Positions 252-15,656 are shown, counted from the stretch's first letter. The stretch is 15,656 bases of DNA from Nanobdellota archaeon (GCA_018829845.1 JAHJTO010000005.1:1-15656), one strand, 5' to 3'. Program-made: numbers and translations. The notes: generated from the letters alone by a model not told the origin.

Positions 252-1547
252 ATGGAAAGGATAAACAAAAATAATGTTAAGCAGATCTATAATGGTCTTT
301 TTAATCCGAATACTGAGAGCAAGATAATTGTTTTTTCTGGAAGAGCCGGAGACGGAAAAACAACTCTTTCTAGAGAACTTGCCATAGGGATGGCTCTGGA
401 GCAATCCAAAATTGCAGATGTTCTAAAAAGCGAATATAATTACAAATTCAAAAGTAAGAAAAAAGGAGTTTTGCATATAGATGCAGACCTTAGAAAAGCA
501 ACATTAAGATCACTGGTTTCAAGAGTAATCTCTCCCGAAGCTAAATCAGCAAGCCTATTTGATTATGCCGCGGAAAAAAAGCCATTCAAAGATCTTATAA
601 TTCACACAAATGTTGATAGATATAAAATAATTGGTGGAGAACAAAGCTTCAGATTTGAAAGTTACCTTGACAACCATCCAGAATTTGTGGAGAATATGGT
701 TGGTGATATTTCAAGGCTTGTCAAATCAAAAGAGTATAACCCGATCATAATCGACGTTGCAGGATCTAATAATACTAAGGAGATCATCCCTTTCATAAAT
801 ATGGCTGATTACAAGTTCCTGGTAACCCAGGATGAAATAGTTTCTCTAGGGGTTGGTCGTAAAATAATCCTTCATGAACTGTTATATTCTATAAATAAAA
901 AGATAAAGGACAAGGTAACAAATGGTCTTTCAAATGATGATGTAAAAAAGAAACTTACAGAGATAATTGAGTCAAATAGGGATAATTTGGATGATTTGTA
1001 TAATTCTCTAAACAAAAATATAAGCAAGGGGAAAGTTAAGGGAGAAGTATTAGGTCTTTACAAAAATGCAATAAATAATATGGCCTATGGCCTTATATTC
1101 TCAAAGGTTAGTAGCATGGGAAAATTTTTGCATTGCCAAAATGTATTCAGAGATGCGGTCCATAATCTAACAAGCATAGATGGAACTGAAGAGGGATTAA
1201 AGATACATAATTTGAATGGACATGGCCTAGTTTTTGATGAAGAGATTGTTGAAAAATCAACAAATCTTGGAGCATCCCTTATTCTGGCAAAATATGATCC
1301 AAGATTGCATAATTGCCATAATGAAGAAGCTATGACGAAATTCTTTAAGGAAACAAAGAAATCAGATGCAGTAAACCAATATGATGGCATGGCAAAGTTC
1401 ATCGCATATAATCTTTTAACCAAAACTCACGATGAGTTCAATGATGGTCCCGAAGAATGGAGGGGCATTGAAGGAATAATCGGAAGAGATAAGATTGAGA
1501 ATAATATGCTTGAATCATACGATAATGGAGAAGAAAATGGTAAGTAA
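252..1547 (+). CDS. divergent MinD/ParA/BY-kinase-like (SIMIBI-class) P-loop ATPase with a helical insert and C-terminal extension
   Basis: 431-aa ORF. Beta-strand KIIVFS followed by the P-loop GRAGDGKTT (aa 30-38, nt 339-365). VLHIDADLRK (aa 73-82) resembles the Walker A' of CapB/CpsD-type ATPases. YNPIIIDVAGS (aa 162-172) is Walker B-like. YGLIFSKV and GLVFDEEIVEKSTNLGASLIL match the MinD/ParA C-terminal motifs. An SD-like AGGA lies upstream of the ATG. Confidence 0.8.
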   Translation: MERINKNNVKQIYNGLFNPNTESKIIVFSGRAGDGKTTLSRELAIGMALEQSKIADVLKSEYNYKFKSKKKGVLHIDADLRKATLRSLVSRVISPEAKSASLFDYAAEKKPFKDLIIHTNVDRYKIIGGEQSFRFESYLDNHPEFVENMVGDISRLVKSKEYNPIIIDVAGSNNTKEIIPFINMADYKFLVTQDEIVSLGVGRKIILHELLYSINKKIKDKVTNGLSNDDVKKKLTEIIESNRDNLDDLYNSLNKNISKGKVKGEVLGLYKNAINNMAYGLIFSKVSSMGKFLHCQNVFRDAVHNLTSIDGTEEGLKIHNLNGHGLVFDEEIVEKSTNLGASLILAKYDPRLHNCHNEEAMTKFFKETKKSDAVNQYDGMAKFIAYNLLTKTHDEFNDGPEEWRGIEGIIGRDKIENNMLESYDNGEENGK

Positions 1548-2438: not shown

Positions 2439-3797
2439 ATGAATAAAAAATTGATAAACATTTTGGCAGGAGCATTTTTAGGTGCAAACTTAAATCTAGC
2501 AAATGCTGCTCCAACCCAGGGCGATCAATATTCTACAAACAAAAGTTCTGACACTGCAACTGTTAACATTATAAAAAAGAAGACTGCCGCAAAATCTACA
2601 AAGGTGGAGAAAAAGTCAGAATTATCAATCACTAGCTATAGCCCTTCTTCAAATATTCTTTCAGGAAGTTTTTTCAATGTAGATCTTACATCAAATTCTC
2701 AAGATATCAAAGAAAGAATCTTCCCCAGAGTTAATGAACAGATTACGAACCATGGACTAAGTTTAGATGAATCTAAATTTAAGAGATTCATAAATGATGA
2801 ATCTCTGAAAAATGGCAAATACTACCTAACTCATTTTGATTACAAAATTGATCTGAACAATGGAGAATTTTTCATAGACAATTTCTGTAAGGAAACCAAG
2901 AAAAGTTTTGGCACCCTAACTGGAATAGGTATCGATCTCGAATTGCTTGACAACAAGGATAATTATTGTAATAAATTTGCATTAAGCAAACCCGGAGAAG
3001 CTGCTAAAAATAATTTTGTATCTTTAGAAAAACCTTTAATTTTGTCAGCATCAACATCAACCACTCTTCCTAGCAATTACGGACAGTTTACAAAAGAATC
3101 TTTCCCAAGCGTTAATATTTTGAAATCGGGCCCTACAGTGGTTGAAGAATTCAAAGCCCCTGAAGTTTCAGAGAAAATTGTTCCAAAGAAAAAGGAAACT
3201 GTAACTATTTATGGATGGGAAGCAGGAATTGGGCTTATGGGCATAAGAGATAAAGTAAGAGGAAGATTACATTATGCTCCTTCATTGAACATCAGTGTTC
3301 CAATGAAAGACAGAAAAGGAAAATGGTCTTTGGAAGGCCGTGTTGCAATGACTGGAGACAATTACACATCTAACAAATTCTACAATTCTGGAACAACTTC
3401 AAGAGGAATTTCATACACTAATCAAACAGAAACAGACAATGAATTCAAAGCATATGCTGCTCAAATCGGTGCAAAAATGAAACTTAACAGCTATTTGAGT
3501 GCACATGGTGGAATGGGTAGCACATGGACAAATAACACTGGAGAGGTTCATGGAAGAGAAAGCCAAACTTATGGCGGTGTAACAATAACCAACCCTATTG
3601 ACCGAGATTTATATGATAATTCTAAACAAAATGGATATATTGAAGCAGGACTCAATCTAAATATTTATAATGGCACCAACATTGAAGCCGGAATAATGGT
3701 TAGTAGAAAAGGAGTTGCCAATTATACTTTTAGAATAAGCGTCCCAATAGGCGAATCTGAAGAAATTCCAAAAAGATATTCAAAGGATAAAAAATGA
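2439..3797 (+). CDS. secreted protein with a C-terminal OMP-like beta-strand-rich domain
   Basis: 452-aa ORF. Sec-type signal MNKKLINILAGAFLGANLNLANA/AP. The C-terminal ~185 aa (nt ~3195-3751) show alternating-hydrophobic strands separated by G/N/S/T/D-rich turns: TIYGWEAGIGLMG, RLHYAPSLNISV, WSLEGRVAMTG, FKAYAAQIGAKMKL, YIEAGLNLNIY, NIEAGIMVSR, NYTFRISVPI. Confidence 0.8.
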   Translation: MNKKLINILAGAFLGANLNLANAAPTQGDQYSTNKSSDTATVNIIKKKTAAKSTKVEKKSELSITSYSPSSNILSGSFFNVDLTSNSQDIKERIFPRVNEQITNHGLSLDESKFKRFINDESLKNGKYYLTHFDYKIDLNNGEFFIDNFCKETKKSFGTLTGIGIDLELLDNKDNYCNKFALSKPGEAAKNNFVSLEKPLILSASTSTTLPSNYGQFTKESFPSVNILKSGPTVVEEFKAPEVSEKIVPKKKETVTIYGWEAGIGLMGIRDKVRGRLHYAPSLNISVPMKDRKGKWSLEGRVAMTGDNYTSNKFYNSGTTSRGISYTNQTETDNEFKAYAAQIGAKMKLNSYLSAHGGMGSTWTNNTGEVHGRESQTYGGVTITNPIDRDLYDNSKQNGYIEAGLNLNIYNGTNIEAGIMVSRKGVANYTFRISVPIGESEEIPKRYSKDKK

Positions 3798-4771
3798 TAA
3801 GTAAATTCTTCAAAATGCCCACCCTTGCAATCTTGGGTTTGATTCTTATAAGTTCATTTGCCCTGGCTACAATTATAGGCTTTCCTTCATGGCAAAATGG
3901 TCTTTCATCTATAACTATAGACAAAGGAGAATCTGTATATTTTGATATGACTTTAACTTCTGCAAATCCTTCTATATCTTATACTGTAACACTTCATAAT
4001 GCTGCTACACAGGCATTGATAAGCACTGTTGAAACCGGAGCAATAAGCAATGATGCAGCAGATATACAAGTAATAATTACTCCTTCAGATTACAATGATG
4101 TTGGGGGAATATATACTGTAAGAATAATTGCCTCAGATAGTATAGGACATAGTGTAATGGACACAAGCCTCAGTCTAACTGTAACAAATCTCGCCCCAAT
4201 AATCTCCAATATTCCCGACTTCACAATTGAAGAAGGAACAAGCCATATTATTAATCTAAACAATTATGTCACTGATGCAGATGATGCCATCCCTAGCCTT
4301 ATTTGGACAGTAACTGGAAATTCCAATATATTAGTAAGCATAGATTCAAGCAACATTGCAACAATCACTTCTTCACTTGGATGGACAGGCTCAGAAACCC
4401 TAACTTTCACAGTAACAGATCTTTCAAGTGATTCTGACTCAGACACAGTTTCAGCAACAGTTGTTCCTATCGGATCCTTGGATGCCGATGAAACAGAAAC
4501 CACAATAAATGTTAAAGATTTGAGCGTAGAATCATTCGGAGATGGAATGTTGATGATAAGAAATAATGGTAATGAAATGGAAGATGTAAAAGTAGAAGTA
4601 AATATTGAAGCCCCAAATGCTCCAACAAACATATTCAGATTTGACATAACTTCAAACACTGTAAAATACTTTGATTTGAATACTGAAGGATTGAGTGGAG
4701 ATTATCTTGCAAGAGTCAAGATGAGCTCAGAAGATTCAAGCGCCTCAGGATATATGATACTGTCAGTCTAA
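3794..4771 (+). CDS. secreted or membrane-anchored protein with Ig/cadherin-like (Big-type) repeats
   Basis: 325-aa ORF. Its ATG overlaps the upstream stop (ATGA at 3794-3797). N-terminal hydrophobic segment PTLAILGLILISSFALATIIGF. The segment LAPIISNIPDFTIEEGTSHIINLNNYVTDADDAIPSLIWTVTGNSNILVSIDSSNIATITSSLGWTGSETLTFTVTD is typical of Ig-like surface-protein repeats. Confidence 0.8.
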   Translation: MISKFFKMPTLAILGLILISSFALATIIGFPSWQNGLSSITIDKGESVYFDMTLTSANPSISYTVTLHNAATQALISTVETGAISNDAADIQVIITPSDYNDVGGIYTVRIIASDSIGHSVMDTSLSLTVTNLAPIISNIPDFTIEEGTSHIINLNNYVTDADDAIPSLIWTVTGNSNILVSIDSSNIATITSSLGWTGSETLTFTVTDLSSDSDSDTVSATVVPIGSLDADETETTINVKDLSVESFGDGMLMIRNNGNEMEDVKVEVNIEAPNAPTNIFRFDITSNTVKYFDLNTEGLSGDYLARVKMSSEDSSASGYMILSV

Positions 4772-4799
4772 TAAAAATATATAAAAAACATAATTTCAC

Positions 4800-4814
4800 C
4801 GAAAGGTTTAAATA
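4800..4814 (+). promoter_or_regulatory. archaeal BRE/TATA promoter (cGAAAGGTTTAAATA), second identical copy
   Basis: Identical 15-mer to 2392-2406. The TATA ends 19 nt before ATG 4834, which implies a leaderless or near-leaderless mRNA. Confidence 0.65.
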
Positions 4815-4833
4815 ACAAATTAACTACTTTAAA

Positions 4834-6072
4834 ATGACAAAAACAATGAAAACCCTTAATGTTCATCCAAAAATGAAAAAGCTATTAACCGCAATGTTTG
4901 TATTGCTTATTTTAGCAGTACCCACAGCGTTAGCAGAAATGTCCGTAACAGTGGATGACGTATCAGTATGGGAAACATCCCTCAGTGTAGAAGCTGGAGA
5001 TACCCTGCCTGTGCAAGTCATGTACGTGTTGGACGAAAATGCTAGCGATGTAGTTGTGGAAGTAGAGCTTTCCTACGGCCATGGAAAGAAAACTGAGGTG
5101 TCTACAAACCCTGTAGACGCTTTGAGTGGTGTTGTGTACAAGAAGAACTTGAAACTTAAGCTTGCTGATGATGTGGAAACATCTGCATCAGGCGAAGAGT
5201 ACAGCCTTTTAGTCCAAATTAAGGACGGAAAAGGACATGTTCTTGAAAGTGCAGAATACGATCTGACAGTTCAGAGAAAGAATGACCTTCTGGAAATCCA
5301 GAGAGTCATAGTGCCTTCTGTTTTGGAAGCTGGTAAAACAGCAAAGATGACCGTTGTCATAAAAAACATCGGATCTGACAAACAGGAAGACGTTTATCTG
5401 AAAATCAGTTCAACCGAACTTGGCCTCTATGAGGAAGAATATGCTGGCGATATAAAAGCCATGGATGAGGATAGCAACGAAGATGTCACTACAATTGATG
5501 TACCTTTGAGAATATCAAAGGATGCATTGAAAGGAACCTACACCTTAACGGTAGAGGTCCATAATGACAACCTCGATGTAAAGACAACCAAGACCGTTAC
5601 AGTTAACGGTATACAGAAGGCTGCCGATTCAACCGATGTAGTCGCTGTTGAAAAGTCTCTTGACTTGAAACAGGGATCCACAGGAGTTTATCAGCTGCAC
5701 CTTTTGAACCTTGGAAATGCTGCGCAGACCTATTCAGTCTCCATTAGGGGATTGGACGGATGGGCATCATATGACGTCAATCCTCTGAGCGTAAAGCTCA
5801 ATCCTGACTCAAGTCAGCTTGTTGACCTCGCCTTGACAGTTTCTGACAAGGCAATGGCAGGAGAGCATACATTCACAGTAGCAGTAGAGAGCGATGGAAA
5901 GACCGTCAAAGAATTGACTTTGACAACAAATATCGAGAAAAGCACATGGAAGGTCGACACAATGTTGATCTCCGTTGTTGTACTCGCGATAGTGCTTGTT
6001 GCCTTAGTTGCAGTTCTTGTTAAATCAAGAAAATCTGAAGACGAGACTGAAGTCGAAGAAAGCTACTACTAG
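4834..6072 (+). CDS. S-layer-like surface glycoprotein candidate (CARDB/NEW3-type beta-sandwich repeats, C-terminal TM anchor)
   Basis: 412-aa ORF. Signal peptide MKKLLTAMFVLLILAVPTALA/EM (alternative starts at 4846 and 4873). Motifs VVIKNIGSDKQEDVYLKISS and YSVSIRGLDGWASYDVNPLSVKLNPDSSQLVDLALTV are typical of archaeal CARDB/NEW3-like surface domains. C-terminal TM MLISVVVLAIVLVALVAVLV followed by KSRKSEDETEVEESYY. GC is higher than in flanking genes, and the gene has a strong promoter and a following T-tract. Confidence 0.85.
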   Translation: MTKTMKTLNVHPKMKKLLTAMFVLLILAVPTALAEMSVTVDDVSVWETSLSVEAGDTLPVQVMYVLDENASDVVVEVELSYGHGKKTEVSTNPVDALSGVVYKKNLKLKLADDVETSASGEEYSLLVQIKDGKGHVLESAEYDLTVQRKNDLLEIQRVIVPSVLEAGKTAKMTVVIKNIGSDKQEDVYLKISSTELGLYEEEYAGDIKAMDEDSNEDVTTIDVPLRISKDALKGTYTLTVEVHNDNLDVKTTKTVTVNGIQKAADSTDVVAVEKSLDLKQGSTGVYQLHLLNLGNAAQTYSVSIRGLDGWASYDVNPLSVKLNPDSSQLVDLALTVSDKAMAGEHTFTVAVESDGKTVKELTLTTNIEKSTWKVDTMLISVVVLAIVLVALVAVLVKSRKSEDETEVEESYY

Positions 6073-6104
6073 AATCGTGCAAACATGGAGACGCCAAGGC
6101 AGAG

Positions 6105-6127
6105 TTTTATTTAATTTTTATTTTTTT
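6105..6127 (+). terminator. oligo-T archaeal terminator after the S-layer-like gene
   Basis: ttttatttaatttttattttttt begins 33 nt after the stop at 6070-6072 and includes a T7 run at 6121-6127. Confidence 0.5.
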
Positions 6128-6133
6128 AAAATC

Positions 6134-6454
6134 CTGAAATCTTATGATTTCAGACATGCTCAGGAATTGTTAAACATGCTCAAAAGCTTTGCTTTTGGAC
6201 ACGCAAAAAATCTCAAAGGATTTTTTACCTATTCCTGGACATTCTTTTTTTCTTTTTATTTGATTGCATTGACTCTCTTTTCTAAATATCCGATGCCATA
6301 GTTATTATTCTCGACGCTTAGAAATCTTTGATTTCTGGCGCAGGAAAATTTTAAGAATTTTCGGCGTCCGGGAATTGTCTTCAATTCCCGTGCGTTCTCA
6401 AAAGATAGATGGAAAAATCTCTTTTCAAGAACGATAAAGCTTTTAAGCGTTCTT
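6134..6454. other. hairpin-dense intergenic region (at least 8 stem-loops); possible sRNA(s) or cis-regulatory array
   Basis: Perfect stems: 6134-6141/6146-6153 (8 bp), 6181-6187/6191-6197 (7 bp), 6205-6212/6219-6226 (8 bp), 6320-6326/6330-6336 (7 bp), 6344-6350/6356-6362 (7 bp) and 6369-6377/6382-6390 (9 bp). Two mutually exclusive stems, 6393-6405/6420-6433 and 6427-6433/6448-6454, share AGAACG. Direct repeat ACATGCTCA at 6154 and 6174. T7+T5 tract at 6245-6257. Confidence 0.45.
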
Positions 6455-6480
6455 GACCCACTCATGAACATATAATTACG

Positions 6481-8811
6481 GTGAAAATGGCAAAAATATC
6501 CAATATTTTTTCAGCATTATTCCTAATATTGCTCATGGCTGGAACCGTTTCAGCATTTTCAATATCTTCAGATTCACAGAGCGCATCCATATGCATAGGA
6601 AGCACAAAGATGCTATCTTCCCTTGTTGAAGGCGGCGGCACATTCACAGTCTCTCAAGAAGGGACTGCCTCAACATTCTCAACCACCGTTCCAAATTCGT
6701 TTTCAACAGAAGGAAGCCAGAACATATATTCTTACATTACTCCCTCAAGCAAGATAAGTCCTGGAGATTACACTCTCAGGATAAAGTTAAGTGACGGTTC
6801 TGAGCAAAAAGAACATGATTATTCCATAACTGTAAAAGATTGTCAGAAAACAGAATTCAGCGCAGAAAGCAAGAAAGTAACTTGCCCTTGCCAAAAGACC
6901 GAGTTTGTTCTGAATATAGTGAACAATGCAGATTATTCAGAGAATTTCACATTGAGTGCTGAAGGAACCCTTAAAGGATGGATCGAATTTTCAGAACAGT
7001 CATTCAGAGCATCATCTGGAGAAGAAAAGGAAATAATCGCATTTGTCCATGCTCCTTGCAATATAAACGGGCAATACGATATAACATTCAAACTTAAGCC
7101 ATCACGTTATTTTTCGTCCTTATCTGCAAAGTCTGAGATGGATATCCAGCCATGCTATGACTACTCATTGAACTTTGAAAATAGGGTATATTTTGCATGT
7201 GAAAATGAACAGTTGATTGTTCCCCTAACCCTTTCAAATGAGGGCAGTTCTGACAACTCATTTAGCATAGATATTGATGGCCCAGATTGGATCACCTATG
7301 AAAAAAGTGCGGATGTGGATTCTGGAGAAAGCAACATCATCAATTTAATAATGAATCCTCCCAGAGATTCTGCAGGAAACTTCACAATAAAAGTCAATGC
7401 ATTGTCTGAATATGGCAATGTAAACAAAAAGGCAGAGACAGTTATGAGTGTGGAAAATTGCCATGAACTTTCAATGAACTTCGAAAATGATAAAGAGACC
7501 ATATGCAATATGGATAAAGAATATTCCTACCTATTGTCCATAAGGAATTCTGGAAAGCTTCATGAAGACATTGACCTTAGCATAGAAGGCCCCTCATGGG
7601 CATCATTAAGTGAAGATTCTATGTTTGTAGAGCGCAATGAAAGCAAAGAAGTGTATGTAGATATAAAATTCCCCTCAGATATGGAAGCAGGAGAATATGA
7701 AATAAAAGTAATTGCTTCTGGAGCCACACGGTCGGAAAGCACTTTTATAATAAATACCAAATATCCTGAAGACTGCTTCTCCTCAGATATTTCTTCTGAA
7801 AAAGACTCAATTGAAGTGTCCCTTGAGGGAGCAAGCATAATTGCCATAGAAGTTAAAAATGATGGATTGGAAGAATCAACTTTCATAATAGGTTTGGATG
7901 GAGATGCATCCTTATTTTCAATGATCAATCCAGAGATCATCACTCTATCTCCCGAAAAATCTGAAACCATCTATGTTTATATTTCCCCCCCATCATTTAC
8001 CGAGCTTAGAGATTATGATCTAAGCATATATTCAAGGGTAAAAGATACTAACTTAGTATCCTCTGAAGATATTAAAATAACTGTTGTAAATGAGAGAATG
8101 TCTTCTGAACCTGTAGATGAAGAATCACAAAAGGGATTCTTTTCAAAGATGTTCTCCAAGATAGGATCATTCTTTAGAACAGTTTGGACTCAAACTGCAA
8201 GCATATTTTCATTAAATTCCCAGGAAGAATCAAATGTGGAAGATTCCAATTTTGAAAACACTGGCAGTGAGAATTTTTCAATGGAAACAATAGTTTCTGA
8301 ATTTGAGAACAATGTAACCGGGGTTTCTGAAGAAGTAGAAGAAGAAATAATTGAAGATGTAATTAAGGTTGAAGAAGCAACCATCGAATTAAATGAGGCA
8401 GATGAAATAATGTTAAATGAAACTGTTGAAACAGCTGAGACTGTTGAAAAGGTTGGATTCTTCTCAAGAATATTTGGTTTGGGAAAAACCGAGGTATTGA
8501 ATGAAACAATCACACTAGAAGAAGTAACAATTGAAGATGTTGAAGAAACTTCCAATGCGGAAGAAGCAACTGAAGAAATTGAAGACATAACTGAAAATGT
8601 CGAAGAATCAGGGGGCGTTGATTCCAACATTACACAATTTAATTTGGATAATGCCAAAAAATCCTTATTGAATTTCTCAGCCTACAAAGATTATCTAATT
8701 GGGATGATTTCACTACTAATATTGATAATAATCTTCGCAACAGGATTCTGGAAGAAGATAATAGATTTCTTCGATGAAGATACTGTAAAAAAATCTCCTA
8801 GAAAAAAATAA
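6481..8811 (+). CDS. large surface protein: four Cys-bracketed CARDB/NEW3-like repeats, acidic stalk, C-terminal TM anchor
   Basis: 776-aa ORF (GTG at 6481; ATG at 6487 is the likelier start). Signal MAKISNIFSALFLILLMAGTVSA/FS. Four repeats of ~100 aa carry a GW/DW/SW motif (LKGWIEF, GPDWITY, GPSWASL, GDASLFS). Three of them open with C-x12-16-C. An E/V/I/T-rich acidic region contains KGFFSKMFSKIGSFF and VGFFSRIFGLGK. C-terminal TM LIGMISLLILIIIFATGFW. Confidence 0.85.
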   Translation: MKMAKISNIFSALFLILLMAGTVSAFSISSDSQSASICIGSTKMLSSLVEGGGTFTVSQEGTASTFSTTVPNSFSTEGSQNIYSYITPSSKISPGDYTLRIKLSDGSEQKEHDYSITVKDCQKTEFSAESKKVTCPCQKTEFVLNIVNNADYSENFTLSAEGTLKGWIEFSEQSFRASSGEEKEIIAFVHAPCNINGQYDITFKLKPSRYFSSLSAKSEMDIQPCYDYSLNFENRVYFACENEQLIVPLTLSNEGSSDNSFSIDIDGPDWITYEKSADVDSGESNIINLIMNPPRDSAGNFTIKVNALSEYGNVNKKAETVMSVENCHELSMNFENDKETICNMDKEYSYLLSIRNSGKLHEDIDLSIEGPSWASLSEDSMFVERNESKEVYVDIKFPSDMEAGEYEIKVIASGATRSESTFIINTKYPEDCFSSDISSEKDSIEVSLEGASIIAIEVKNDGLEESTFIIGLDGDASLFSMINPEIITLSPEKSETIYVYISPPSFTELRDYDLSIYSRVKDTNLVSSEDIKITVVNERMSSEPVDEESQKGFFSKMFSKIGSFFRTVWTQTASIFSLNSQEESNVEDSNFENTGSENFSMETIVSEFENNVTGVSEEVEEEIIEDVIKVEEATIELNEADEIMLNETVETAETVEKVGFFSRIFGLGKTEVLNETITLEEVTIEDVEETSNAEEATEEIEDITENVEESGGVDSNITQFNLDNAKKSLLNFSAYKDYLIGMISLLILIIIFATGFWKKIIDFFDEDTVKKSPRKK

Positions 8812-8828: not shown

Positions 8829-11690
8829 CTAAACTCTCAGGCTAAGAACCCTTGAAACCCCGTCCTGCATTGTAACTCCGAAAAGTATTGGAGAATCTGA
8901 AATAAGATGATCATTATGTGTAATCACTATATACTGTGCATTCTTGATATAAGTTTTCAAAAGATCTGAAAGCCTTTCAGTATTCTTCTTATCCAATGCG
9001 GCATCTATCTCATCAAAGATATAGAAATAATAAGGCTTAAGCTCTTGTATTGCAAATATAAGGCTAAGTGCAACAAGTGTTCTTTCTCCCCCAGACAAAG
9101 AGTTTACATCAAGGTATTTTCCCTTTGCCAGCTTTACATCAATATTTATTCCCCCCTCAAATGGATTTTCCCTGTTTTCAAGAGATAGGAATGCTTCTCT
9201 TGCTCCGAGCCTTAGGAAATTATTTGAGAAAATCCCATTTATGCTGTCAAATGTTTTCATAAAAGTTGTTTTCTTCTTTCTATCTATCTCTGCAATGATG
9301 TTAAGAATATCTTGCTTTTCCTGTTCAAGCCTCAACACCCTTTCATTTATTTTCTCATACTCTTCCTTAACCTTCTCATAAACCTCTAGAGCCTTGAGAT
9401 TAACAGTCCCTATCTTGATCATTTCAGTTTCATTCCTCTTTATTCTGGCTTCTATTTCATTTTTAGACTGCTTAAGCTTCAAAGATTCAATATCTAGATG
9501 CTTATACTGCTCGAATTCATTAGTTGATGTTTCCAACTCCGCAGAGGTCTTTGCCTTAGCAATCCTCAGTATGTTAACTTCTTCCTCAACTCCTCTGAGC
9601 TTGAGCTTGTTTTCCATATTCTTATGTTCCAATTCCCTAAGCTGATTTTGAAGAGTTGATCTTTTCTTGAAAAGTTTATCAAATGTCTCATACATTGCCT
9701 TTTCCTTTGCTTCTTTGTCTTCCATCACACCTTGCTTCTCTTTCAACTGATGCGTAAATTCTTTTATAGTATTCCCAAGAGATTTCTTATCTGCAGGGAA
9801 TTTTTTGATTATTTCTTTTATCCTTTCAATTTCCTGTTCCAAAGACATCAACTTCAACTCAACCTGGGATCTTGACTCGCTTTTCTTAGTCAATTCCTTA
9901 AACTCTTCTCTCATTTGAGTATATGTTTTTTCAAAATCTCCGAATTTCTTTATCTCTATCTCAAGGCTTGCTGCTTTCTTCTCAAGAGCATTGATGTTAG
10001 ATTCCAGAGCCCTGACCTCATCCTCTATTATCTCCTTCTCCATTCGCTTATCATTAAGATTTTCTTCATTCACCTTAAACACCTTCAATCTTCCAGAAGT
10101 CTCATTTAACATCTCAAGATTTTTCTTCAACATAATTATTTTTTCTTCAGCGTCCAAATGGGATTTTATAGAATTCTCAAGCTTTTTTTGAAGATTCTTT
10201 ATATCAGAATCAGATTTTGAATGAACCTCTCCAATATGTTCAGAGGTCACCTTTCTTTTACAAACCGGGCAAACATCCAAGTCCCTTATGTCCTTTTTTA
10301 TCTTCTCTATCAGGAATATTTCTTTTCTGAATTCTGCAGCATTATTTGAAAGAAGCTGTCTGCTTTTCTCAAGAGAATCTAGCTCAGTCAGGGATTTTTT
10401 GATTTTATCCAGGATTGATTCAAGCTTTGCAAATTCTTTTGGAGTGTTTCTTTCCAATTCCAATATTTTCTCGTTCAGCTGGCTTCCCTTTTGCACAAGG
10501 TATGAAAAATTATTTCTATTGTGGTGAAGATCGCTTGTAACTTTTATTAATTCTGTTCTAAACTTGTCAAGTCTCTCTTTCTTTTCTTCAAGAGAAGATA
10601 ATGAGGCATTCTTTGACTGGAGTAGCTTCTTCAGATCATCCTTTGGAAATGTGGCCTTCAGAGTTTCAATTTCATCAAGACTTCTTGTCAATTCTTTTTC
10701 CAATTGCTCTCTTCTTTTTTCCAATTCAGTCAATTGCTGTTGGTGATTCTCAAGTCTAACAGACAATACTGCAACCTCTGCCTTCTGCTGAGCAACTTCC
10801 TCATGAAGTTTTTCTTGCTCAACTCCTGTTGCTTGTTCAATGTGCTTGTTTATCTTATCTATCTCCCCGTTCATAAAAGAGATTTTTGATTCCATTCCGG
10901 AGATTGTTTCTTTGGCCCTTGCAATATGGTTGCCTTTATCAGATAGGCTTTTTTCAATGTCCCCATTCTCTTTTTTCTTGTCTTCCAAATGCCTGAACAA
11001 TAATGCTGCCTTGTCTCTCTCAATTCCCCTCCTCAAACTTTCATAATTCAGGGCCTGGCTTCTTTCCTTGTCAAGATTTCTCAGATATGCTGTTCTTTCA
11101 TTTAATATCGTTCTTACCTCTTTCAATTTTTCATCAGTCCTGTTCATTTCATTCATGCTCTTGTTCTTCCTATCTTCATAGATTGAAATTCCTGCGACCT
11201 CTTCCATGACTCCTCTTCTTTCCTCAGGATGCATTTCTATGAATTTGGCTATTTCCTGCTGAAGGATTATATTGAAACCATTTGGATCTATTCCCCCCTG
11301 GGCAAGAAGCTCAAGAATTTCCTGCCTTGTCTTTACTTCATTGTTAACCCTATAAGTGCTTATCCCATTCTTTCTTACTGTTCTGGAAATGCTTACCTCG
11401 GGCTTGTCAATTGCAAATGTATTATTTGAATTATCAAGAAGAAGCTCTACAAATGCTTCCGGAGAAGGAGAATGGCTCTTTCCCCCGTTATAGATCAAAT
11501 TCGAGGCCTTGGCCGCCCTCATGCTCTTGGCACTCAATCTTCCAAGTACAAAACATATAGAATCAGTGATGTTGCTTTTTCCCGCGCCATTTGGACCTAA
11601 TATTATGTTAAGCTTTGTATCAAAAGGAATCTCAACTTTCTTTGCAAAGCTCTTAAATCCCTGCATGGTAAGTTTTTTTATAAAAGTCAT
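8829..11690 (-). CDS. smc: SMC-family chromosome-organisation ATPase lacking a hinge, with a central Rad50-like CxxC zinc hook
   Basis: 953 aa from ATG 11690 (MTFIKKLTMQGFKSF...). The ORF is open to 11747, but that adds a non-conserved 19-aa extension. Walker A GPNGAGKSN. SMC Q-loop region ILQQEIAKFIEMHPEERRGVMEEVAGISIYEDRK. Signature/Walker B/D-loop LSGGERTLVALSLIFAIQELKPYYFYIFDEIDAALD. C-terminal FGVTMQDGVSRVLSL. Long K/E-rich coiled-coil arms. CPVCKRKVTSEH at aa 474-485 (Cys codons within nt 10260-10271). Confidence 0.9.
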   Translation of the reverse strand: MTFIKKLTMQGFKSFAKKVEIPFDTKLNIILGPNGAGKSNITDSICFVLGRLSAKSMRAAKASNLIYNGGKSHSPSPEAFVELLLDNSNNTFAIDKPEVSISRTVRKNGISTYRVNNEVKTRQEILELLAQGGIDPNGFNIILQQEIAKFIEMHPEERRGVMEEVAGISIYEDRKNKSMNEMNRTDEKLKEVRTILNERTAYLRNLDKERSQALNYESLRRGIERDKAALLFRHLEDKKKENGDIEKSLSDKGNHIARAKETISGMESKISFMNGEIDKINKHIEQATGVEQEKLHEEVAQQKAEVAVLSVRLENHQQQLTELEKRREQLEKELTRSLDEIETLKATFPKDDLKKLLQSKNASLSSLEEKKERLDKFRTELIKVTSDLHHNRNNFSYLVQKGSQLNEKILELERNTPKEFAKLESILDKIKKSLTELDSLEKSRQLLSNNAAEFRKEIFLIEKIKKDIRDLDVCPVCKRKVTSEHIGEVHSKSDSDIKNLQKKLENSIKSHLDAEEKIIMLKKNLEMLNETSGRLKVFKVNEENLNDKRMEKEIIEDEVRALESNINALEKKAASLEIEIKKFGDFEKTYTQMREEFKELTKKSESRSQVELKLMSLEQEIERIKEIIKKFPADKKSLGNTIKEFTHQLKEKQGVMEDKEAKEKAMYETFDKLFKKRSTLQNQLRELEHKNMENKLKLRGVEEEVNILRIAKAKTSAELETSTNEFEQYKHLDIESLKLKQSKNEIEARIKRNETEMIKIGTVNLKALEVYEKVKEEYEKINERVLRLEQEKQDILNIIAEIDRKKKTTFMKTFDSINGIFSNNFLRLGAREAFLSLENRENPFEGGINIDVKLAKGKYLDVNSLSGGERTLVALSLIFAIQELKPYYFYIFDEIDAALDKKNTERLSDLLKTYIKNAQYIVITHNDHLISDSPILFGVTMQDGVSRVLSLRV

Positions 11691-11708
11691 GCTGTCTCTC
11701 TTTTTATT

Positions 11709-11757
11709 ATGCTTGGAAGGCCATGCTTCCCGGCATGACGGAAGCATTTTATGCTTC
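11709..11757 (-). promoter_or_regulatory. alternative-pairing hairpin cluster in the putative smc leader
   Basis: atgcttcc (11723-11730) pairs with ggaagcat (11740-11747). gaagcat (11741-11747) can instead pair with atgcttc (11751-11757). Further atgctt/ggaag copies lie at 11709-11719. Confidence 0.25.
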
Positions 11758-11861: not shown

Positions 11862-12536
11862 CTAGAATAATTTTTTCTGTCCGTTTTTCTCAACAATGGC
11901 CTTCCAAGTTCCCCATGACTTTCTTATTATTCCAGAATTTTCAAATTTTCTGCCATGTTTGATTAAAAATTCTTTAACCTTTGGATCGGCAGGGTATCCG
12001 GATCCAAAATTGATCTTTATTTTCTTCCTTATGTCTTCAACATTCCCTTCCCTTGCCACCTTTGCAAGGATTGATGCAGCAGAAACTGAAATATGGTTCG
12101 CATCGGCCTTATGCTCGCACTTAATGCTTAAACCTTCAGTGTTCTTCACAAAGCCCACCAATTTTTCTGTCCAAGCAGAAATGTTTATTGAAGGACAATC
12201 AACAACAACTTCTATCTTATTCTTTCCCCCTGCTTTCTTTTTTAAAAAATCAATGACCTCTGCCATCTTCATAGCTTCCAAGGTATTCAAACTATTTGTT
12301 TCAACATAATGGTCAATTTCCTCAGGAGTTGCACTAACAACTTTATGGGCTATTGAATTCTTTTCTATTATCTTTGAAAGCCTTACTCTTGTTGGATGGG
12401 ATAAAAGCTTTGAATCCTTAACATTCTGTTCCTTGAGAAAAGCCTCCTGTTCGGAATCAATTAAAACGCCCCCTAGAAACATGTTTCCAATAACTGGTCC
12501 TCTTCCGGCATCATCTACTCCTAAAAGAAGATTCAT
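11862..12536 (-). CDS. rnhB: ribonuclease HII
   Basis: 224 aa. N-terminus MNLLLGVDDAGRGPVIGNMFLGGVL matches the RNase HII G-x-D-E-A-G-R-G-P-V-I-G-P motif, with D in place of E. The size is archaeal-type. The SAASILAKV motif is present. The start overlaps the upstream stop (ATGA at 12533-12536). Confidence 0.9.
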   Translation of the reverse strand: MNLLLGVDDAGRGPVIGNMFLGGVLIDSEQEAFLKEQNVKDSKLLSHPTRVRLSKIIEKNSIAHKVVSATPEEIDHYVETNSLNTLEAMKMAEVIDFLKKKAGGKNKIEVVVDCPSINISAWTEKLVGFVKNTEGLSIKCEHKADANHISVSAASILAKVAREGNVEDIRKKIKINFGSGYPADPKVKEFLIKHGRKFENSGIIRKSWGTWKAIVEKNGQKKLF

Positions 12537-13114: not shown

Positions 13115-13125
13115 TTGAACATGAG

Positions 13126-13200
13126 TAGCGGGAGAAGGATTTGAACCTCCGATCTCAAGGTTATGGGCCTTGCGAGGACTCCAGGCTCCTCTATCCCGCT
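13126..13200 (-). tRNA. tRNA-Met (anticodon CAT), probably the archaeal initiator type (A1:U72); no encoded CCA
   Basis: The - strand reads AGCGGGA-TA-GAGG-AGCCTGGAGT-CCTC-G-CAAGG-CCCATAA-CCTTG-AGATC-GGAGG-TTCAAAT-CCTTC-TCCCGCT-A. This is a full 75-nt cloverleaf with a 7-bp acceptor stem starting A:U. The anticodon stem has only two G:C pairs next to the loop, so an elongator tRNA-Met is not excluded. Confidence 0.9.
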
Positions 13201-15146: not shown

Positions 15147-15656
15147 CCCCGCCCTGAAGGTTTGACTCTGCGGAGTCAAATCTCGCTTCGCGAGAGCGGG
15201 GTTTCCACTGAAGTTCTATCGAGCGTGATGCTCTTCCTGATTTCTGACATAATCTCTTATTGTTTCTATCTGCACAAATCCAACGGATGCTGCAAATTTT
15301 CCAGGACTCCAAAGGTGCCCTCTGGAATATCTCAATCTCGCTTTTTCATGATTTCTGAAAAACAAATAGGCTGAAAGTCCTTTCAGAATCTGCAATGCTT
15401 GCGCTGGCGACATGGTAAGTTTTATCTCAACAGCACAGTGCACATGATCTGCTTGCACATTAAGCTCAATTATTTTTATGCTATGCATAAACGCTGCTTT
15501 TCTTATGCAGGCCGTTATCAAATTTTTATATTTCTCTTTTGCAAACATATTATATCGGTATTTTGAGCACCACTCAAAATGCCACATTGAAATTCCGACG
15601 CTGTGGTTATTTCTTACATACTGATTTGCAGAGCTCTCGCTAAGTTGAATTTGCAT
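15147..15656 (-). mobile_element. IS200/IS605-family insertion sequence, partial (one end plus tnpA; the rest lies beyond the window)
   Basis: A Y1/HUH transposase gene plus a GC-rich subterminal multi-hairpin at 15147-15201, 15 nt downstream of the tnpA stop. The exact IS boundary was not determined. Confidence 0.7.
15216..15656 (-). CDS. tnpA: IS200/IS605-family Y1 (HUH) transposase TnpA
   Basis: 146 aa; the ATG is the last three bases of the window, so the true start could lie further upstream. HSVGISMWHFEWCSKYRYNMF matches the conserved N-terminal strand. HUH motif in QADHVHCAV. GHLWSPGKFAASVG is present. The catalytic Tyr lies in IRDYVRNQEEHH. Confidence 0.9.
   Translation of the reverse strand: MQIQLSESSANQYVRNNHSVGISMWHFEWCSKYRYNMFAKEKYKNLITACIRKAAFMHSIKIIELNVQADHVHCAVEIKLTMSPAQALQILKGLSAYLFFRNHEKARLRYSRGHLWSPGKFAASVGFVQIETIRDYVRNQEEHHAR

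What the first reader, a model, noticed from the sequence alone, without database searches (positions are those of the whole stretch)
8829..11690. SMC-type ATPase heads joined by a Rad50-type CPVC zinc hook instead of a hinge
Seen in sequence:
- Both head halves are clearly SMC-like rather than Rad50/SbcC-like: MQGFKSF, GPNGAGKSN, ILQQEIAKFIEM...EEVAGISIYEDRK, LSGGERTLVALSLIFAIQ...FDEIDAALD, FGVTMQDGVSRV.
- The protein has only 953 aa, against roughly 1150-1200 aa for canonical archaeal and bacterial SMC.
- I find no glycine-rich globular hinge.
- The coiled coil is interrupted once, by DLDVCPVCKRKVTSEHIGE. The two cysteines are at aa 474 and 477 of 953, which is the exact midpoint.

Established knowledge: the archaeal Rad50 hook reads C-P-V-C-G-R-x-L-T-x-E-H (Pyrococcus furiosus), which is nearly the same string.

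Inference: dimerisation would be Zn-mediated at the apex rather than hinge-mediated, giving a chimeric SMC/Rad50 architecture. No scpA/scpB-like gene is adjacent; the gene downstream is a convergent surface-protein gene. This could be a member of the poorly characterised archaeal SMC-related families, or a new variant that serves as the only condensin-like protein of a reduced genome.
Basis: partly seen in the sequence, partly recalled or inferred. Interest (0 to 1): 0.75.

Follow-up and report, generated by a model that had tools for sequence, protein, structure and literature searches.

The report
Archaeal SMC with zinc hook apex
This gene encodes the chromosome-organising SMC protein of a tiny uncultured archaeon in which the usual "hinge" that joins two SMC molecules has been replaced by the cysteine zinc hook normally found in the DNA-repair protein Rad50, a natural version of a domain swap previously made only in the laboratory.

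Summary
Window 8829-11690 (-) encodes a 953-aa protein.

- **Heads:** they are canonical archaeal SMC. Pyrococcus Smc heads score 338 bits, against 45 bits for the best Rad50.
- **Hinge:** there is no SMC hinge. The same Pfam model scores 95-118 bits in other DPANN SMCs.
- **Hook:** C474-P-V-C477 sits at the exact midpoint. A profile of this region finds P. furiosus Rad50 hook structures at E 1e-8. Its AlphaFold model (pLDDT 96.8) superposes on 1L8D with TM 0.80/0.86.
- **Conservation:** all 109 full-length homologues recovered (41-91% identity; Nanoarchaeota/Pacearchaeota MAGs) keep C-P-x-C. C, P and C are three of only six invariant arm residues.
- **Origin:** in a head tree the family is monophyletic (200/200) and sister to hinge-bearing Nanoarchaeota SMCs (200/200). 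It occupies the same RNase HII–smc–surface-protein locus. It is therefore the SMC orthologue with a swapped apex, not Rad50, not ClsN/ASRP and not a chimera.

Zinc-mediated dimerisation is inferred, not shown. The kleisin partner could not be located. About 10 positional orthologues of ~800 aa lack both hook and hinge. I found no published description, so I rate this a new variant of a known kind.

The parts
8829..11690 (-). smc gene, 953 aa plus stop codon (8829-8831); hook-type SMC
   Evidence: ORF and translation. The start at 11690 matches homologues of 950-955 aa. Pfam SMC_N scores 3.9e-53 across aa 3-945.
11190..11690 (-). N-terminal half of the ABC ATPase head (aa 1-167). Contains Walker A GPNGAGKS (aa 32-39, nt 11574-11597), the invariant K55/S56/R58 in the KSMRAAK segment, and Q144, which I assign to the Q-loop.
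   Evidence: Matches Pyrococcus Smc heads 5xei, 5xns and 4i99 over aa 1-236. These residues are invariant in 110 sequences. The model shows a beta-rich head fold.
10287..11189 (-). N-terminal coiled-coil arm (aa 168-468, about 301 aa). Breaks at aa 228-245 (joint, nt 10956-11009) and aa 338-363 (elbow-like, nt 10602-10679).
   Evidence: AlphaFold helices 168-227, 246-337 and 364-468. The heptad signal exceeds the 95th percentile of shuffles over 55% of the arm and 0% of the heads. Foldseek matches the Smc head plus joint structure 5xei.
10245..10286 (-). Zinc-hook loop (aa 469-482, RDLDVCPVCKRKVT). The C474-P-V-C477 motif is at nt 10260-10271. The conserved T482 and H485 follow.
   Evidence: C474, P475 and C477 are invariant; D472, T482 and H485 are at least 90% conserved. 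Pfam Rad50_zn_hook scores 5.2e-5 on the fragment, and 39 of 45 family members hit it. The profile finds 6zff and 1l8d at E 1e-8. The fragment model has pLDDT 96.8, and its top four Foldseek hits are Pf Rad50 hook structures.
9204..10244 (-). C-terminal coiled-coil arm (aa 483-829). Breaks at aa 599-607 (elbow-like, nt 9870-9896) and aa 728-766 (joint, nt 9393-9509).
   Evidence: AlphaFold helices 483-581, 586-598, 608-727 and 767-829. Heptad signal.
8832..9203 (-). C-terminal half of the ATPase head (aa 830-953). Contains the signature motif LSGGE (aa 865-869, nt 9084-9098), Walker B plus D-loop FYIFDEIDAALD (aa 889-900, nt 8991-9026), and H925, which I assign to the H-loop.
   Evidence: Motif positions. 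These residues are invariant in 110 sequences. The region matches Smc C-terminal head structures 1xew_Y and 3kta_B.
11862..12536 (-). RNase HII gene, a conserved upstream neighbour of smc. It serves as a synteny marker and is not proposed to be part of the complex.
   Evidence: Pfam RNase_HII 9.2e-37. It lies next to or near smc in L001, L003, L005, L007, L090, L091 and L032, and in the hinge-type locus L011.
4834..6072 (+). Convergent downstream surface-protein gene (NPCBM_assoc/FixG_C Ig-like). It serves as a conserved synteny marker.
   Evidence: Pfam hits. Homologues lie downstream of smc in 7 related loci and in the hinge-type locus L010.

Best explanation
This is the chromosomal SMC (prokaryotic condensin ATPase) of an uncultured Nanoarchaeota/Pacearchaeota-type DPANN archaeon.

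**Proposed history.** In an ancestor of a large clade, the distal coiled coil plus the globular hinge (about 420 aa) was replaced in place. The replacement is about 230 aa of coiled coil that turns at a Rad50-type C-P-x-C zinc hook.

**Proposed mechanism.**
- Each protomer folds back on itself into an arm of about 300 residues per strand, which retains the SMC joint.
- Two protomers are held together at the apex by one Zn2+ ion bound tetrahedrally by four cysteines, C474 and C477 from each chain, as in Rad50.
- The intact ABC heads carry Walker A, Q-loop, signature, Walker B, D-loop and H-loop motifs. They engage and disengage with ATP, as in Smc-ScpAB, to entrap or translocate DNA.

**Shown by computation:** the head family, the absence of a hinge, the hook homology and fold, its conservation, and orthology by phylogeny and synteny.

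**Inferred:** zinc binding and homodimerisation, the chromosome-organising function, and the presence of a kleisin partner.
For: **Heads are SMC.**
- TIGR02169 SMC_prok_A scores 516 bits and TIGR02168 scores 505 bits. ASRP scores 109 bits and Rad50 models about 102 bits.
- In the PDB, Pyrococcus Smc heads score 338 bits (E 1e-99), B. subtilis Smc 247 bits, and the best Rad50 44.6 bits.
- Foldseek gives TM 0.88 (RMSD 3.6 A) to 5xns and TM 0.74 to the Smc head plus joint structure 5xei.
- All ATPase motif residues are invariant in 110 sequences.

**The hinge is truly absent**, with positive controls.

**The apex is a hook.**
- The 45-sequence central profile hits 6zff at 8.5e-9, 1l8d at 1.3e-8 and the human RAD50 hook 5gox at 8.6e-5. 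The next hit is noise.
- 39 of 45 members hit Pfam PF04423.
- The fragment model has pLDDT 96.8, and its top four PDB fold matches are Pf Rad50 hooks, with TM 0.80/0.86 and RMSD 2.2 A to 1l8d.
- In a 1.8-billion-protein library, the nearest sampled hook regions outside the family belong to Rad50-type proteins.

**Selection on the hook.** C474, P475 and C477 are three of only six invariant residues in about 600 arm residues. The protein has only 3 cysteines.

**Orthology.**
- The hook plus short clade has 200/200 bootstrap support. It is sister to hinge-type Nanoarchaeota/Woesearchaeota SMCs, also at 200/200.
- Hinge-type loci share the RNase HII–smc–surface-protein synteny.
- The neighbourhood is chromosomal core: EF-Tu, EF-G, Toprim-domain protein, RNase HII and a tRNA gene.

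**Possible partner site.** The head-proximal 'neck' coiled coil is conserved at 0.68-0.78, against 0.4-0.5 for the distal arms. This fits a retained partner-binding site.

**Precedent.** An engineered B. subtilis Smc carrying the Pf Rad50 zinc hook supports normal growth (PMC5344682).
Against: - No experiment or co-folding shows zinc binding or dimerisation. Only monomers could be modelled.
- No ScpA or ScpB gene was found within +-10 kb in 8 related loci. Two ScpA-seeded searches did not reach these genomes. A kleisin-closed ring is therefore unproven.
- About 10 positional orthologues of about 800 aa lack the hook altogether. Apex dimerisation by zinc is therefore not indispensable in this lineage.
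- The query's own Pfam hook score (18.8-23.4 bits) is just below the gathering cut-off of 24.3.
- The tree is neighbour-joining on 384 head columns with limited outgroups, and includes no Rad50 or ASRP sequences.
Confidence: 0.8

Rival explanations
1. The architecture is as described, but the function has shifted. The hook-SMC would work as a Rad50-like DNA tether or bridging factor. Its hooks would join separate complexes or sister DNAs, possibly without a kleisin, rather than acting as a loop-extruding or entrapping condensin.
For: The hook was most likely taken from a Rad50-type protein. No scpA/scpB gene was found near smc in 8 loci. Short orthologues with no apex domain exist, which suggests relaxed constraints on ring closure at the apex.
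Against: The heads, neck and joint are conserved like canonical Smc. The gene is the positional and phylogenetic orthologue of hinge-type SMC. Hinge-type Nanoarchaeota loci also lack an adjacent scpA, so missing linkage says little. The engineered Smc(Zh) protein performs normal Smc function (PMC5344682).
Confidence: 0.12
2. It belongs to the archaea-specific SMC-related proteins (ASRP: ClsN/coalescin, Sph1/2). These proteins also carry a zinc hook between SMC-like heads.
For: ASRPs have a hook in place of a hinge (PMC9389158). The NCBIfam ASRP model gives E 1.9e-31.
Against: The ASRP score of 109 bits is far below the cut-off of 300. Its best stretch covers only coiled coil (aa 298-662), and the SMC models score 516 and 505 bits. 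The heads are about 50% identical to hinge-bearing Nanoarchaeota SMC heads and nest inside archaeal SMC with 200/200 support. The locus is shared with hinge-type SMC.
Confidence: 0.03
3. It is a divergent Rad50/SbcC double-strand-break repair ATPase whose heads merely resemble SMC.
For: It has a CPxC hook at the midpoint and a length near that of Rad50. Rad50 HMMs give E about 1e-29.
Against: Rad50 models score about 102 bits against cut-offs of 700-1000. The best PDB Rad50 scores 44.6 bits against 338 bits for Smc. No Mre11-like gene appears in any of 8 loci. A separate Rad50-like family of about 685 aa and canonical Rad50s were recovered as distinct, much weaker hook matches.
Confidence: 0.02
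4. It is an assembly chimera or a frameshift artefact that joins an SMC gene to a Rad50 fragment.
For: None beyond the unusual architecture.
Against: The same architecture, with the hook at 0.46-0.52 of the length, occurs in 109 homologues. They come from independent NCBI, JGI, ENA and Logan assemblies on contigs up to 660 kb. Base composition is uniform across the gene.
Confidence: 0.01

Closest known systems
Canonical prokaryotic Smc of Smc-ScpAB (e.g. Pyrococcus Smc, PDB 5xei/5xns/4i99; B. subtilis Smc)
   Same: The ABC head carries all the motifs, and the head sequence and fold match (338 bits; TM 0.88). It has a long antiparallel arm with a joint, about 300 residues per strand. It is the phylogenetic sister and positional orthologue of hinge-type Nanoarchaeota SMC.
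   Different: There is no hinge domain. The distal arm plus hinge (about 420 aa) is replaced by about 230 aa that turn at a CPxC hook, and the protein is about 200 aa shorter. The full-length SMC HMM falls below its cut-off (516 against 729 bits). No adjacent scpA gene is present.
Engineered Smc(Zh): B. subtilis Smc with the P. furiosus Rad50 zinc hook (Buermann et al. 2017, PMC5344682). The reciprocal swap is Rad50 carrying an SMC hinge (Tatebe et al. 2020, PMC6969161).
   Same: The design is identical: SMC heads and arms closed by a Rad50-type hook. The engineered protein supported normal growth and near-normal arm alignment.
   Different: This one is natural and ancient. It is fixed in a large, diverse archaeal clade (homologues down to 41% identity), with co-evolved distal arms.
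Rad50 zinc hook (Pfam PF04423; PDB 1L8D, 6ZFF, 5GOX)
   Same: The motif C-P-[VLIT]-C-x-[RSNT]-x-[VILM]-T-x-x-H aligns to the Pf sequence CPVCGRELTDEH. The predicted hairpin superposes at RMSD 2.2 A.
   Different: Here the hook is attached to SMC heads rather than Rad50 heads. No Mre11 gene is nearby. The query's single-sequence Pfam score is marginally below the gathering threshold.
ASRP family (ClsN/coalescin, Sph1/Sph2; Yoshinaga et al. 2022, PMC9389158)
   Same: These are archaeal SMC-superfamily proteins with a zinc hook instead of a hinge.
   Different: ASRP heads are divergent and form a separate family. This protein fails the ASRP model (109 against 300 bits) and groups with canonical SMC.
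'Hinge-less' SMC of marine Actinobacteria (Sussfeld et al. 2025, PMC12153180)
   Same: It is an SMC-clade protein lacking the hinge. It resembles the ~800-aa hookless orthologues seen here.
   Different: Those proteins are bacterial and explicitly lack the CXXC motif. This family has an invariant CPxC hook.

Membership tests
Canonical SMC (Smc of Smc-ScpAB; TIGR02169 / PF02463 + PF06470) | ABC ATPase head with Walker A, Q-loop, signature LSGGE, Walker B, D-loop and H-loop | tested here: met
   GPNGAGKS at aa 32, Q144, LSGGE at aa 865, FDEID at aa 892, AALD at aa 897 and H925. All are invariant in 110 sequences.
Canonical SMC (Smc of Smc-ScpAB; TIGR02169 / PF02463 + PF06470) | Head sequence and fold closest to SMC rather than to other coiled-coil ABC ATPases | tested here: met
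   PDB Smc heads score 338 bits against 44.6 bits for Rad50. Foldseek gives TM 0.88 to 5xns. SMC_N scores 180.6 bits.
Canonical SMC (Smc of Smc-ScpAB; TIGR02169 / PF02463 + PF06470) | Long antiparallel coiled-coil arm with a joint | tested here: met
   AlphaFold helices with paired breaks at aa 228-245/728-766. Match to the Smc head plus joint structure 5xei, TM 0.74. Heptad signal.
Canonical SMC (Smc of Smc-ScpAB; TIGR02169 / PF02463 + PF06470) | Globular SMC hinge dimerisation domain (PF06470) | tested here: not met
   No hit at E<=1. None of the listed homologues carries PF06470. Positive controls score 95-118 bits.
Canonical SMC (Smc of Smc-ScpAB; TIGR02169 / PF02463 + PF06470) | Full-length equivalog HMM score above the curated cut-off | tested here: not met
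   TIGR02169 scores 516 against 729.4, and TIGR02168 scores 505 against 567. The match is split in two stretches around the missing hinge.
Canonical SMC (Smc of Smc-ScpAB; TIGR02169 / PF02463 + PF06470) | Orthology to hinge-type SMC by phylogeny and gene neighbourhood | tested here: met
   Sister to Nanoarchaeota hinge-type SMC with 200/200 support. RNase HII and surface-protein neighbours are shared with the hinge-type loci L010, L011 and L012.
Canonical SMC (Smc of Smc-ScpAB; TIGR02169 / PF02463 + PF06470) | Kleisin (ScpA) and kite (ScpB) partners | tested here: inconclusive
   No PF02616 or PF04079 within +-10 kb in 8 loci. ScpA-seeded searches did not reach these genomes.
Rad50/SbcC | CxxC zinc hook at the coiled-coil apex | tested here: met
   
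Rad50/SbcC | Rad50-type ATPase head (NCBIfam Rad50 or SbcC equivalogs) | tested here: not met
   The best Rad50 model scores 102.6 bits against cut-offs of 700-1000. SbcC scores 39.9 bits against 478.
Rad50/SbcC | Adjacent Mre11/SbcD nuclease gene | tested here: not met
   No Mre11-like gene was identified next to smc in the window or in 8 related loci.
ASRP (ClsN/Sph) | NF045487 equivalog score above the cut-off, with ASRP-type heads | tested here: not met
   109.4 bits against a cut-off of 300. The best stretch is aa 298-662, which is coiled coil only.
Zinc-hook dimer (functional property) | One Zn2+ ion bound by four cysteines from two protomers | not testable with these tools
   Only monomer prediction was available. 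This is inferred from motif identity with 1L8D and from invariant C-P-x-C.

The most novel reading that the evidence does not exclude
A whole radiation of DPANN archaea (Pacearchaeota/Nanoarchaeota) runs its sole chromosomal SMC with a Rad50-derived zinc hook instead of a hinge. A nested subclade has gone further and deleted everything beyond the elbow, leaving an ~800-aa SMC with no recognisable apex dimerisation domain. If so, nature has already run the hinge-dispensability and arm-truncation experiments. Hinge-specific functions proposed for SMC, such as DNA binding or an entry gate, would then not be universally required for SMC action.
Probability: 0.45. Interest if true: 0.8.

Novelty: new variant of a known kind. 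Interest (0 to 1): 0.66.

Why it matters
- **It crosses a textbook boundary.** The hinge is treated as a defining feature of SMC proteins and the zinc hook as a defining feature of Rad50 (for example the 2023 review PMC10586767). The roles proposed for the hinge in dimerisation, DNA binding and DNA entry are still debated.
- **It is a natural test of hinge dispensability.** Laboratory chimeras showed that the two apex modules are interchangeable in B. subtilis and in human Rad50 (PMC5344682, PMC6969161). A bona fide SMC orthologue that has carried a Rad50-type hook across a deep, diverse archaeal clade shows the swap is evolutionarily stable.
- **It supplies comparative material.** There are more than 100 natural hook-SMC sequences with co-evolved arms, plus a further-truncated series. 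These can be used to study arm-length and geometry constraints.
- **It raises a testable question.** How does chromosome organisation work in ultra-small DPANN genomes, and does it use a kleisin?
- **It matters for annotation.** These proteins fall below the SMC equivalog cut-off. Pipelines name them generically or could mistake them for Rad50.

Tried and rejected
1. **Window protein lookup.** Its exact sequence is not in the contig index, so I used homologues for genomic context.
2. **Pfam scan of the 110-sequence alignment.** I replaced it with a 45-sequence alignment of the central region.
3. **GTDB genome scan with head motifs.** It could not show whether hook-type genomes also carry a hinge-type SMC. 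It did supply hinge-type DPANN references and positive controls.
4. **Kleisin hunt.**
   - Pfam at E<=10 and PDB sequence searches on the unannotated neighbouring ORFs of about 90-240 aa, in the window and in related loci, found nothing ScpA-like.
   - A 226-aa ORF next to a Trm5-like gene in L090 looked promising, because Trm5–ScpA–ScpB is the gene order in a Micrarchaeota-type contig. It shows no similarity to ScpA.
   - Searches seeded with ScpA from L013, and with P0281 whose named relatives are Micrarchaeota/Marsarchaeota, returned no protein on a contig shared with a hook-SMC.
5. **First bootstrap run.** It timed out and was redone with a faster distance routine.
6. **Single versus double origin of the ~800-aa hookless forms.** The head tree does not resolve this: 9/200 for monophyly and about 63-65% for each of two subgroups. 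Their central modules are colinear with shared motifs, so I favour one origin, without firm support.
7. **Literature searches.** Five searches combining SMC, zinc hook or hinge with DPANN or Nanoarchaeota terms found no description of a natural hook-bearing SMC. A sixth targeted search mixing SMC, zinc hook, hinge domain and Woesearchaeota also found none. Subscription-only literature was not searchable.


Full report
**The gene.** The ORF on the minus strand runs 8829-11747. Homologues of 950-955 aa begin at MTFIKKL, so the start is the ATG at 11690, giving 953 aa. The quoted strings are all present. The protein has only three cysteines: C46, C474 and C477. C474-P-V-C477 (nt 10260-10271) lies at 0.50 of the length. 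GC content is uniform across the gene.

**The heads.** Pfam SMC_N spans aa 3-945 at 3.9e-53. NCBIfam gives:
- SMC_prok_A 516 bits and SMC_prok_B 505 bits, each as two stretches flanking a missing centre;
- ASRP 109 bits;
- Rad50 models about 102 bits;
- arcadin-4 65 bits.

Against PDB sequences the best matches are Pyrococcus Smc heads (5xei 338 bits, E 1.1e-99; also 5xns and 4i99). B. subtilis Smc follows at about 247 bits and eukaryotic SMC2 at 185 bits. The best Rad50 scores only 44.6 bits. All ATPase motifs are present: GPNGAGKS at aa 32, Q144, LSGGE at aa 865, FDEID at aa 892, AALD at aa 897 and H925. They are invariant across 110 family members.

**Absence of a hinge.** No PF06470 hit appears even at E<=1. 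None of the listed homologues carries it. As a positive control, the same model scores 95-118 bits in hinge-bearing SMCs of 1094-1170 aa from Nanoarchaeota, Woesearchaeota and Micrarchaeota.

**The hook.**
- The whole protein gives a sub-threshold Pfam Rad50_zn_hook hit (18.8 bits; cut-off 24.3) at aa 463-504.
- I built a 45-sequence alignment of the central 111 aa. Its profile finds the P. furiosus Rad50 hook structures 6zff (8.5e-9) and 1l8d (1.3e-8) and the human RAD50 hook 5gox (8.6e-5). The next hit, at E 0.016, is an unrelated coiled-coil protein.
- The alignment places C-P-L-C-x-x-K-I-T-x-E-H on the Pf sequence CPVCGRELTDEH.
- 39 of 45 members hit PF04423, the best at 8.7e-8.
- AlphaFold2 on this fragment gives a helical hairpin with pLDDT 96.8. 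Its four best fold matches among 350,542 PDB chains are the Pf Rad50 hook: 1l8d at TM 0.80/0.86 and RMSD 2.2 A, and 6zff. The Foldseek E-values are modest (2e-3), as expected for a helical hairpin.
- In a 1.8-billion-protein library the profile has 635 matches at E<=1e-3. The ten non-family hits I classified from the best 150 are all Rad50-type: a Rad50-like family of about 685 aa and canonical archaeal Rad50/SbcC. The hook therefore most likely derives from a Rad50-type protein.

**Overall architecture.** The full-length AlphaFold2 model (pLDDT 77.9) has heads at aa 1-167 and 830-953. Helices run 168-227, 246-337 and 364-468. A loop at 469-482 carries the two cysteines. Helices then run 483-581, 586-598, 608-727 and 767-829. 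Paired breaks at 228-245/728-766 correspond to the SMC joint: Foldseek matches the Smc head plus joint structure 5xei at TM 0.74 and 5xns at TM 0.88 with RMSD 3.6 A. A second paired break at 338-363/599-607 looks like an elbow. A crude heptad score exceeds the 95th percentile of shuffles over 51-55% of the arms and 0% of the heads.

**Distribution and constraint.** A search of 5.8 billion proteins returned over 5,600 relatives. Of the best 120, 109 are 939-1034 aa and all have C-P-[VLIT]-C at 0.46-0.52 of their length. Sources that name them call them SMC from Nanoarchaeota, Pacearchaeota or 'archaeon' MAGs. Identity to the query is 41-91%. Within about 600 arm residues the only invariant positions are V311, C474, P475, C477, A713 and A717. 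D472, T482 and H485 are at least 90% conserved. The independent assemblies, on contigs up to 660 kb, exclude a chimera.

**Origin.**
- I built a neighbour-joining tree of 384 head columns from 47 sequences, with 200 bootstraps.
- It gives 200/200 support for monophyly of the hook-type plus short forms.
- It also gives 200/200 support for their sister relationship to hinge-bearing Nanoarchaeota/Woesearchaeota SMCs. The whole group sits inside archaeal SMC.
- Head identity to those sisters is about 50%, against 35-41% to other SMCs.
- The query is colinear with hinge-type SMCs up to about aa 364 and from about aa 595. Between these points, about 230 aa replace about 420 aa.
- Gene order is shared. 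RNase HII lies upstream of smc in the window, in seven hook or short loci and in the hinge-type locus L011. Homologous surface-protein genes lie convergently downstream in hook-type loci and in the hinge-type loci L010 and L012.

This is an in-place replacement in the orthologous gene, not a paralogue or a mobile element. The neighbourhood is chromosomal core, with EF-Tu, EF-G, Toprim-domain protein and a tRNA-Met gene.

**Mechanism.** By analogy with 1L8D, two protomers would share one Zn2+ ion through four cysteines. This would close the apex, while the ATP-driven heads act as in Smc-ScpAB. This step is inferred. It is made plausible by the engineered B. subtilis Smc(Zh) protein, which supports normal growth and near-normal arm alignment (PMC5344682), and by the reciprocal Rad50-hinge swap (PMC6969161). 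The neck coiled coil is much better conserved (0.68-0.78) than the distal arms (0.4-0.5), which fits a retained kleisin-binding site.

No scpA or scpB gene was found within +-10 kb of smc in eight loci. In several other archaea, scpA sits directly downstream of smc. It does not in hinge-type Nanoarchaeota either, so the lack of linkage is lineage-wide and uninformative. Attempts to reach these genomes' ScpA failed.

**An unexpected extension.** Nine proteins of about 800 aa, plus one intein-bearing form, have heads 64-69% identical to the query (five measured) but neither hook nor hinge. One of them sits in the same RNase HII–smc–surface-protein slot (L003). They are colinear with the query to about aa 358 and from about aa 595. 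A module of about 90 aa with shared motifs replaces the whole distal arm. They nest within the hook clade. That loss does occur, but only together with loss of the entire distal arm. Every full-length orthologue recovered keeps the motif.

**Novelty.** Six targeted full-text searches found no description of a natural SMC with a zinc hook. A 2023 review from the field states the dichotomy of SMC with hinge and Rad50 with hook. ASRP/ClsN proteins have hooks but are a separate family. 'Hinge-less' actinobacterial SMCs explicitly lack CXXC. I therefore rate this a new variant of a known kind. The caveat is that subscription-only literature could not be searched.

Noticed in passing
Related proteins P0029, P0030, P0035, P0036, P0039, P0040, P0068, P0069, P0112 and P0020; locus L003 3878-6277: SMC orthologues of about 800 aa have heads 64-69% identical to the query (five of them measured) but neither hinge nor CxxC hook. 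Everything distal to the elbow-like break (query aa ~358-595) is replaced by a module of about 90 aa with conserved motifs ([IL]DFxSFK, LxxLTGLEI). L003 shows the same RNase HII–smc–surface-protein synteny. How these proteins dimerise at the apex, if they do, is unknown.
   Followed up: partly
Related proteins P0003 (1484 aa, 76% identical to the query) and P0020 (1335 aa): Large inteins of 532 and 541 aa, with LAGLIDADG and Hint domains, are inserted in the Walker A P-loop directly after GxxGxGK. The flanking residues are Cys and HN/S, typical of inteins.
   Followed up: partly
window 15216-15656 (-): An IS200-like Y1 transposase ORF (Pfam Y1_Tnp, 7.9e-27) reaches the window end at 15656 and may be cut by it.
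   Followed up: no
window 13125-13200 (-): A tRNA-Met (CAT) gene lies just upstream of the serine hydrolase / RNase HII / smc gene string.
   Followed up: no
window 2439-8811 (+): Four consecutive genes encode predicted surface or Ig-like proteins, with weak OMP_b-brl (below cut-off), Big_9, NPCBM_assoc/FixG_C and CARDB hits. They run convergent to smc. The 4834-6072 gene is conserved downstream of smc in 7 related loci and in the hinge-type locus L010.
   Followed up: partly
window 252-1547 (+): A 431-aa ORF has only sub-threshold P-loop/STAND-type NTPase hits (AAA_31, nSTAND3, NB-ARC). A 33%-identical homologue sits in the syntenic region of L005.
   Followed up: no
Proteins P0172, P0177, P0184, P0195 and about 40 others: A family of Rad50-like proteins of about 685 aa has a hook at about aa 300-410. 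Their best NCBIfam hits are Rad50 models, far below the cut-offs. Their hook regions are the closest non-SMC relatives of the hook described here, so they are a possible donor lineage. Their genomic context (Mre11?) was not examined.
   Followed up: partly
window 11691-11747 (-): The longest ORF extends 19 codons upstream of the start used by all homologues. An automatic caller could mis-annotate a 972-aa product.
   Followed up: yes
L092 6001-7195: In a 777-kb archaeal contig whose ScpA has close relatives named as Micrarchaeota/Marsarchaeota, scpA and scpB form an operon downstream of a Trm5/TYW2-like gene and are unlinked to smc. DPANN lineages therefore can keep ScpAB away from smc.
   Followed up: partly
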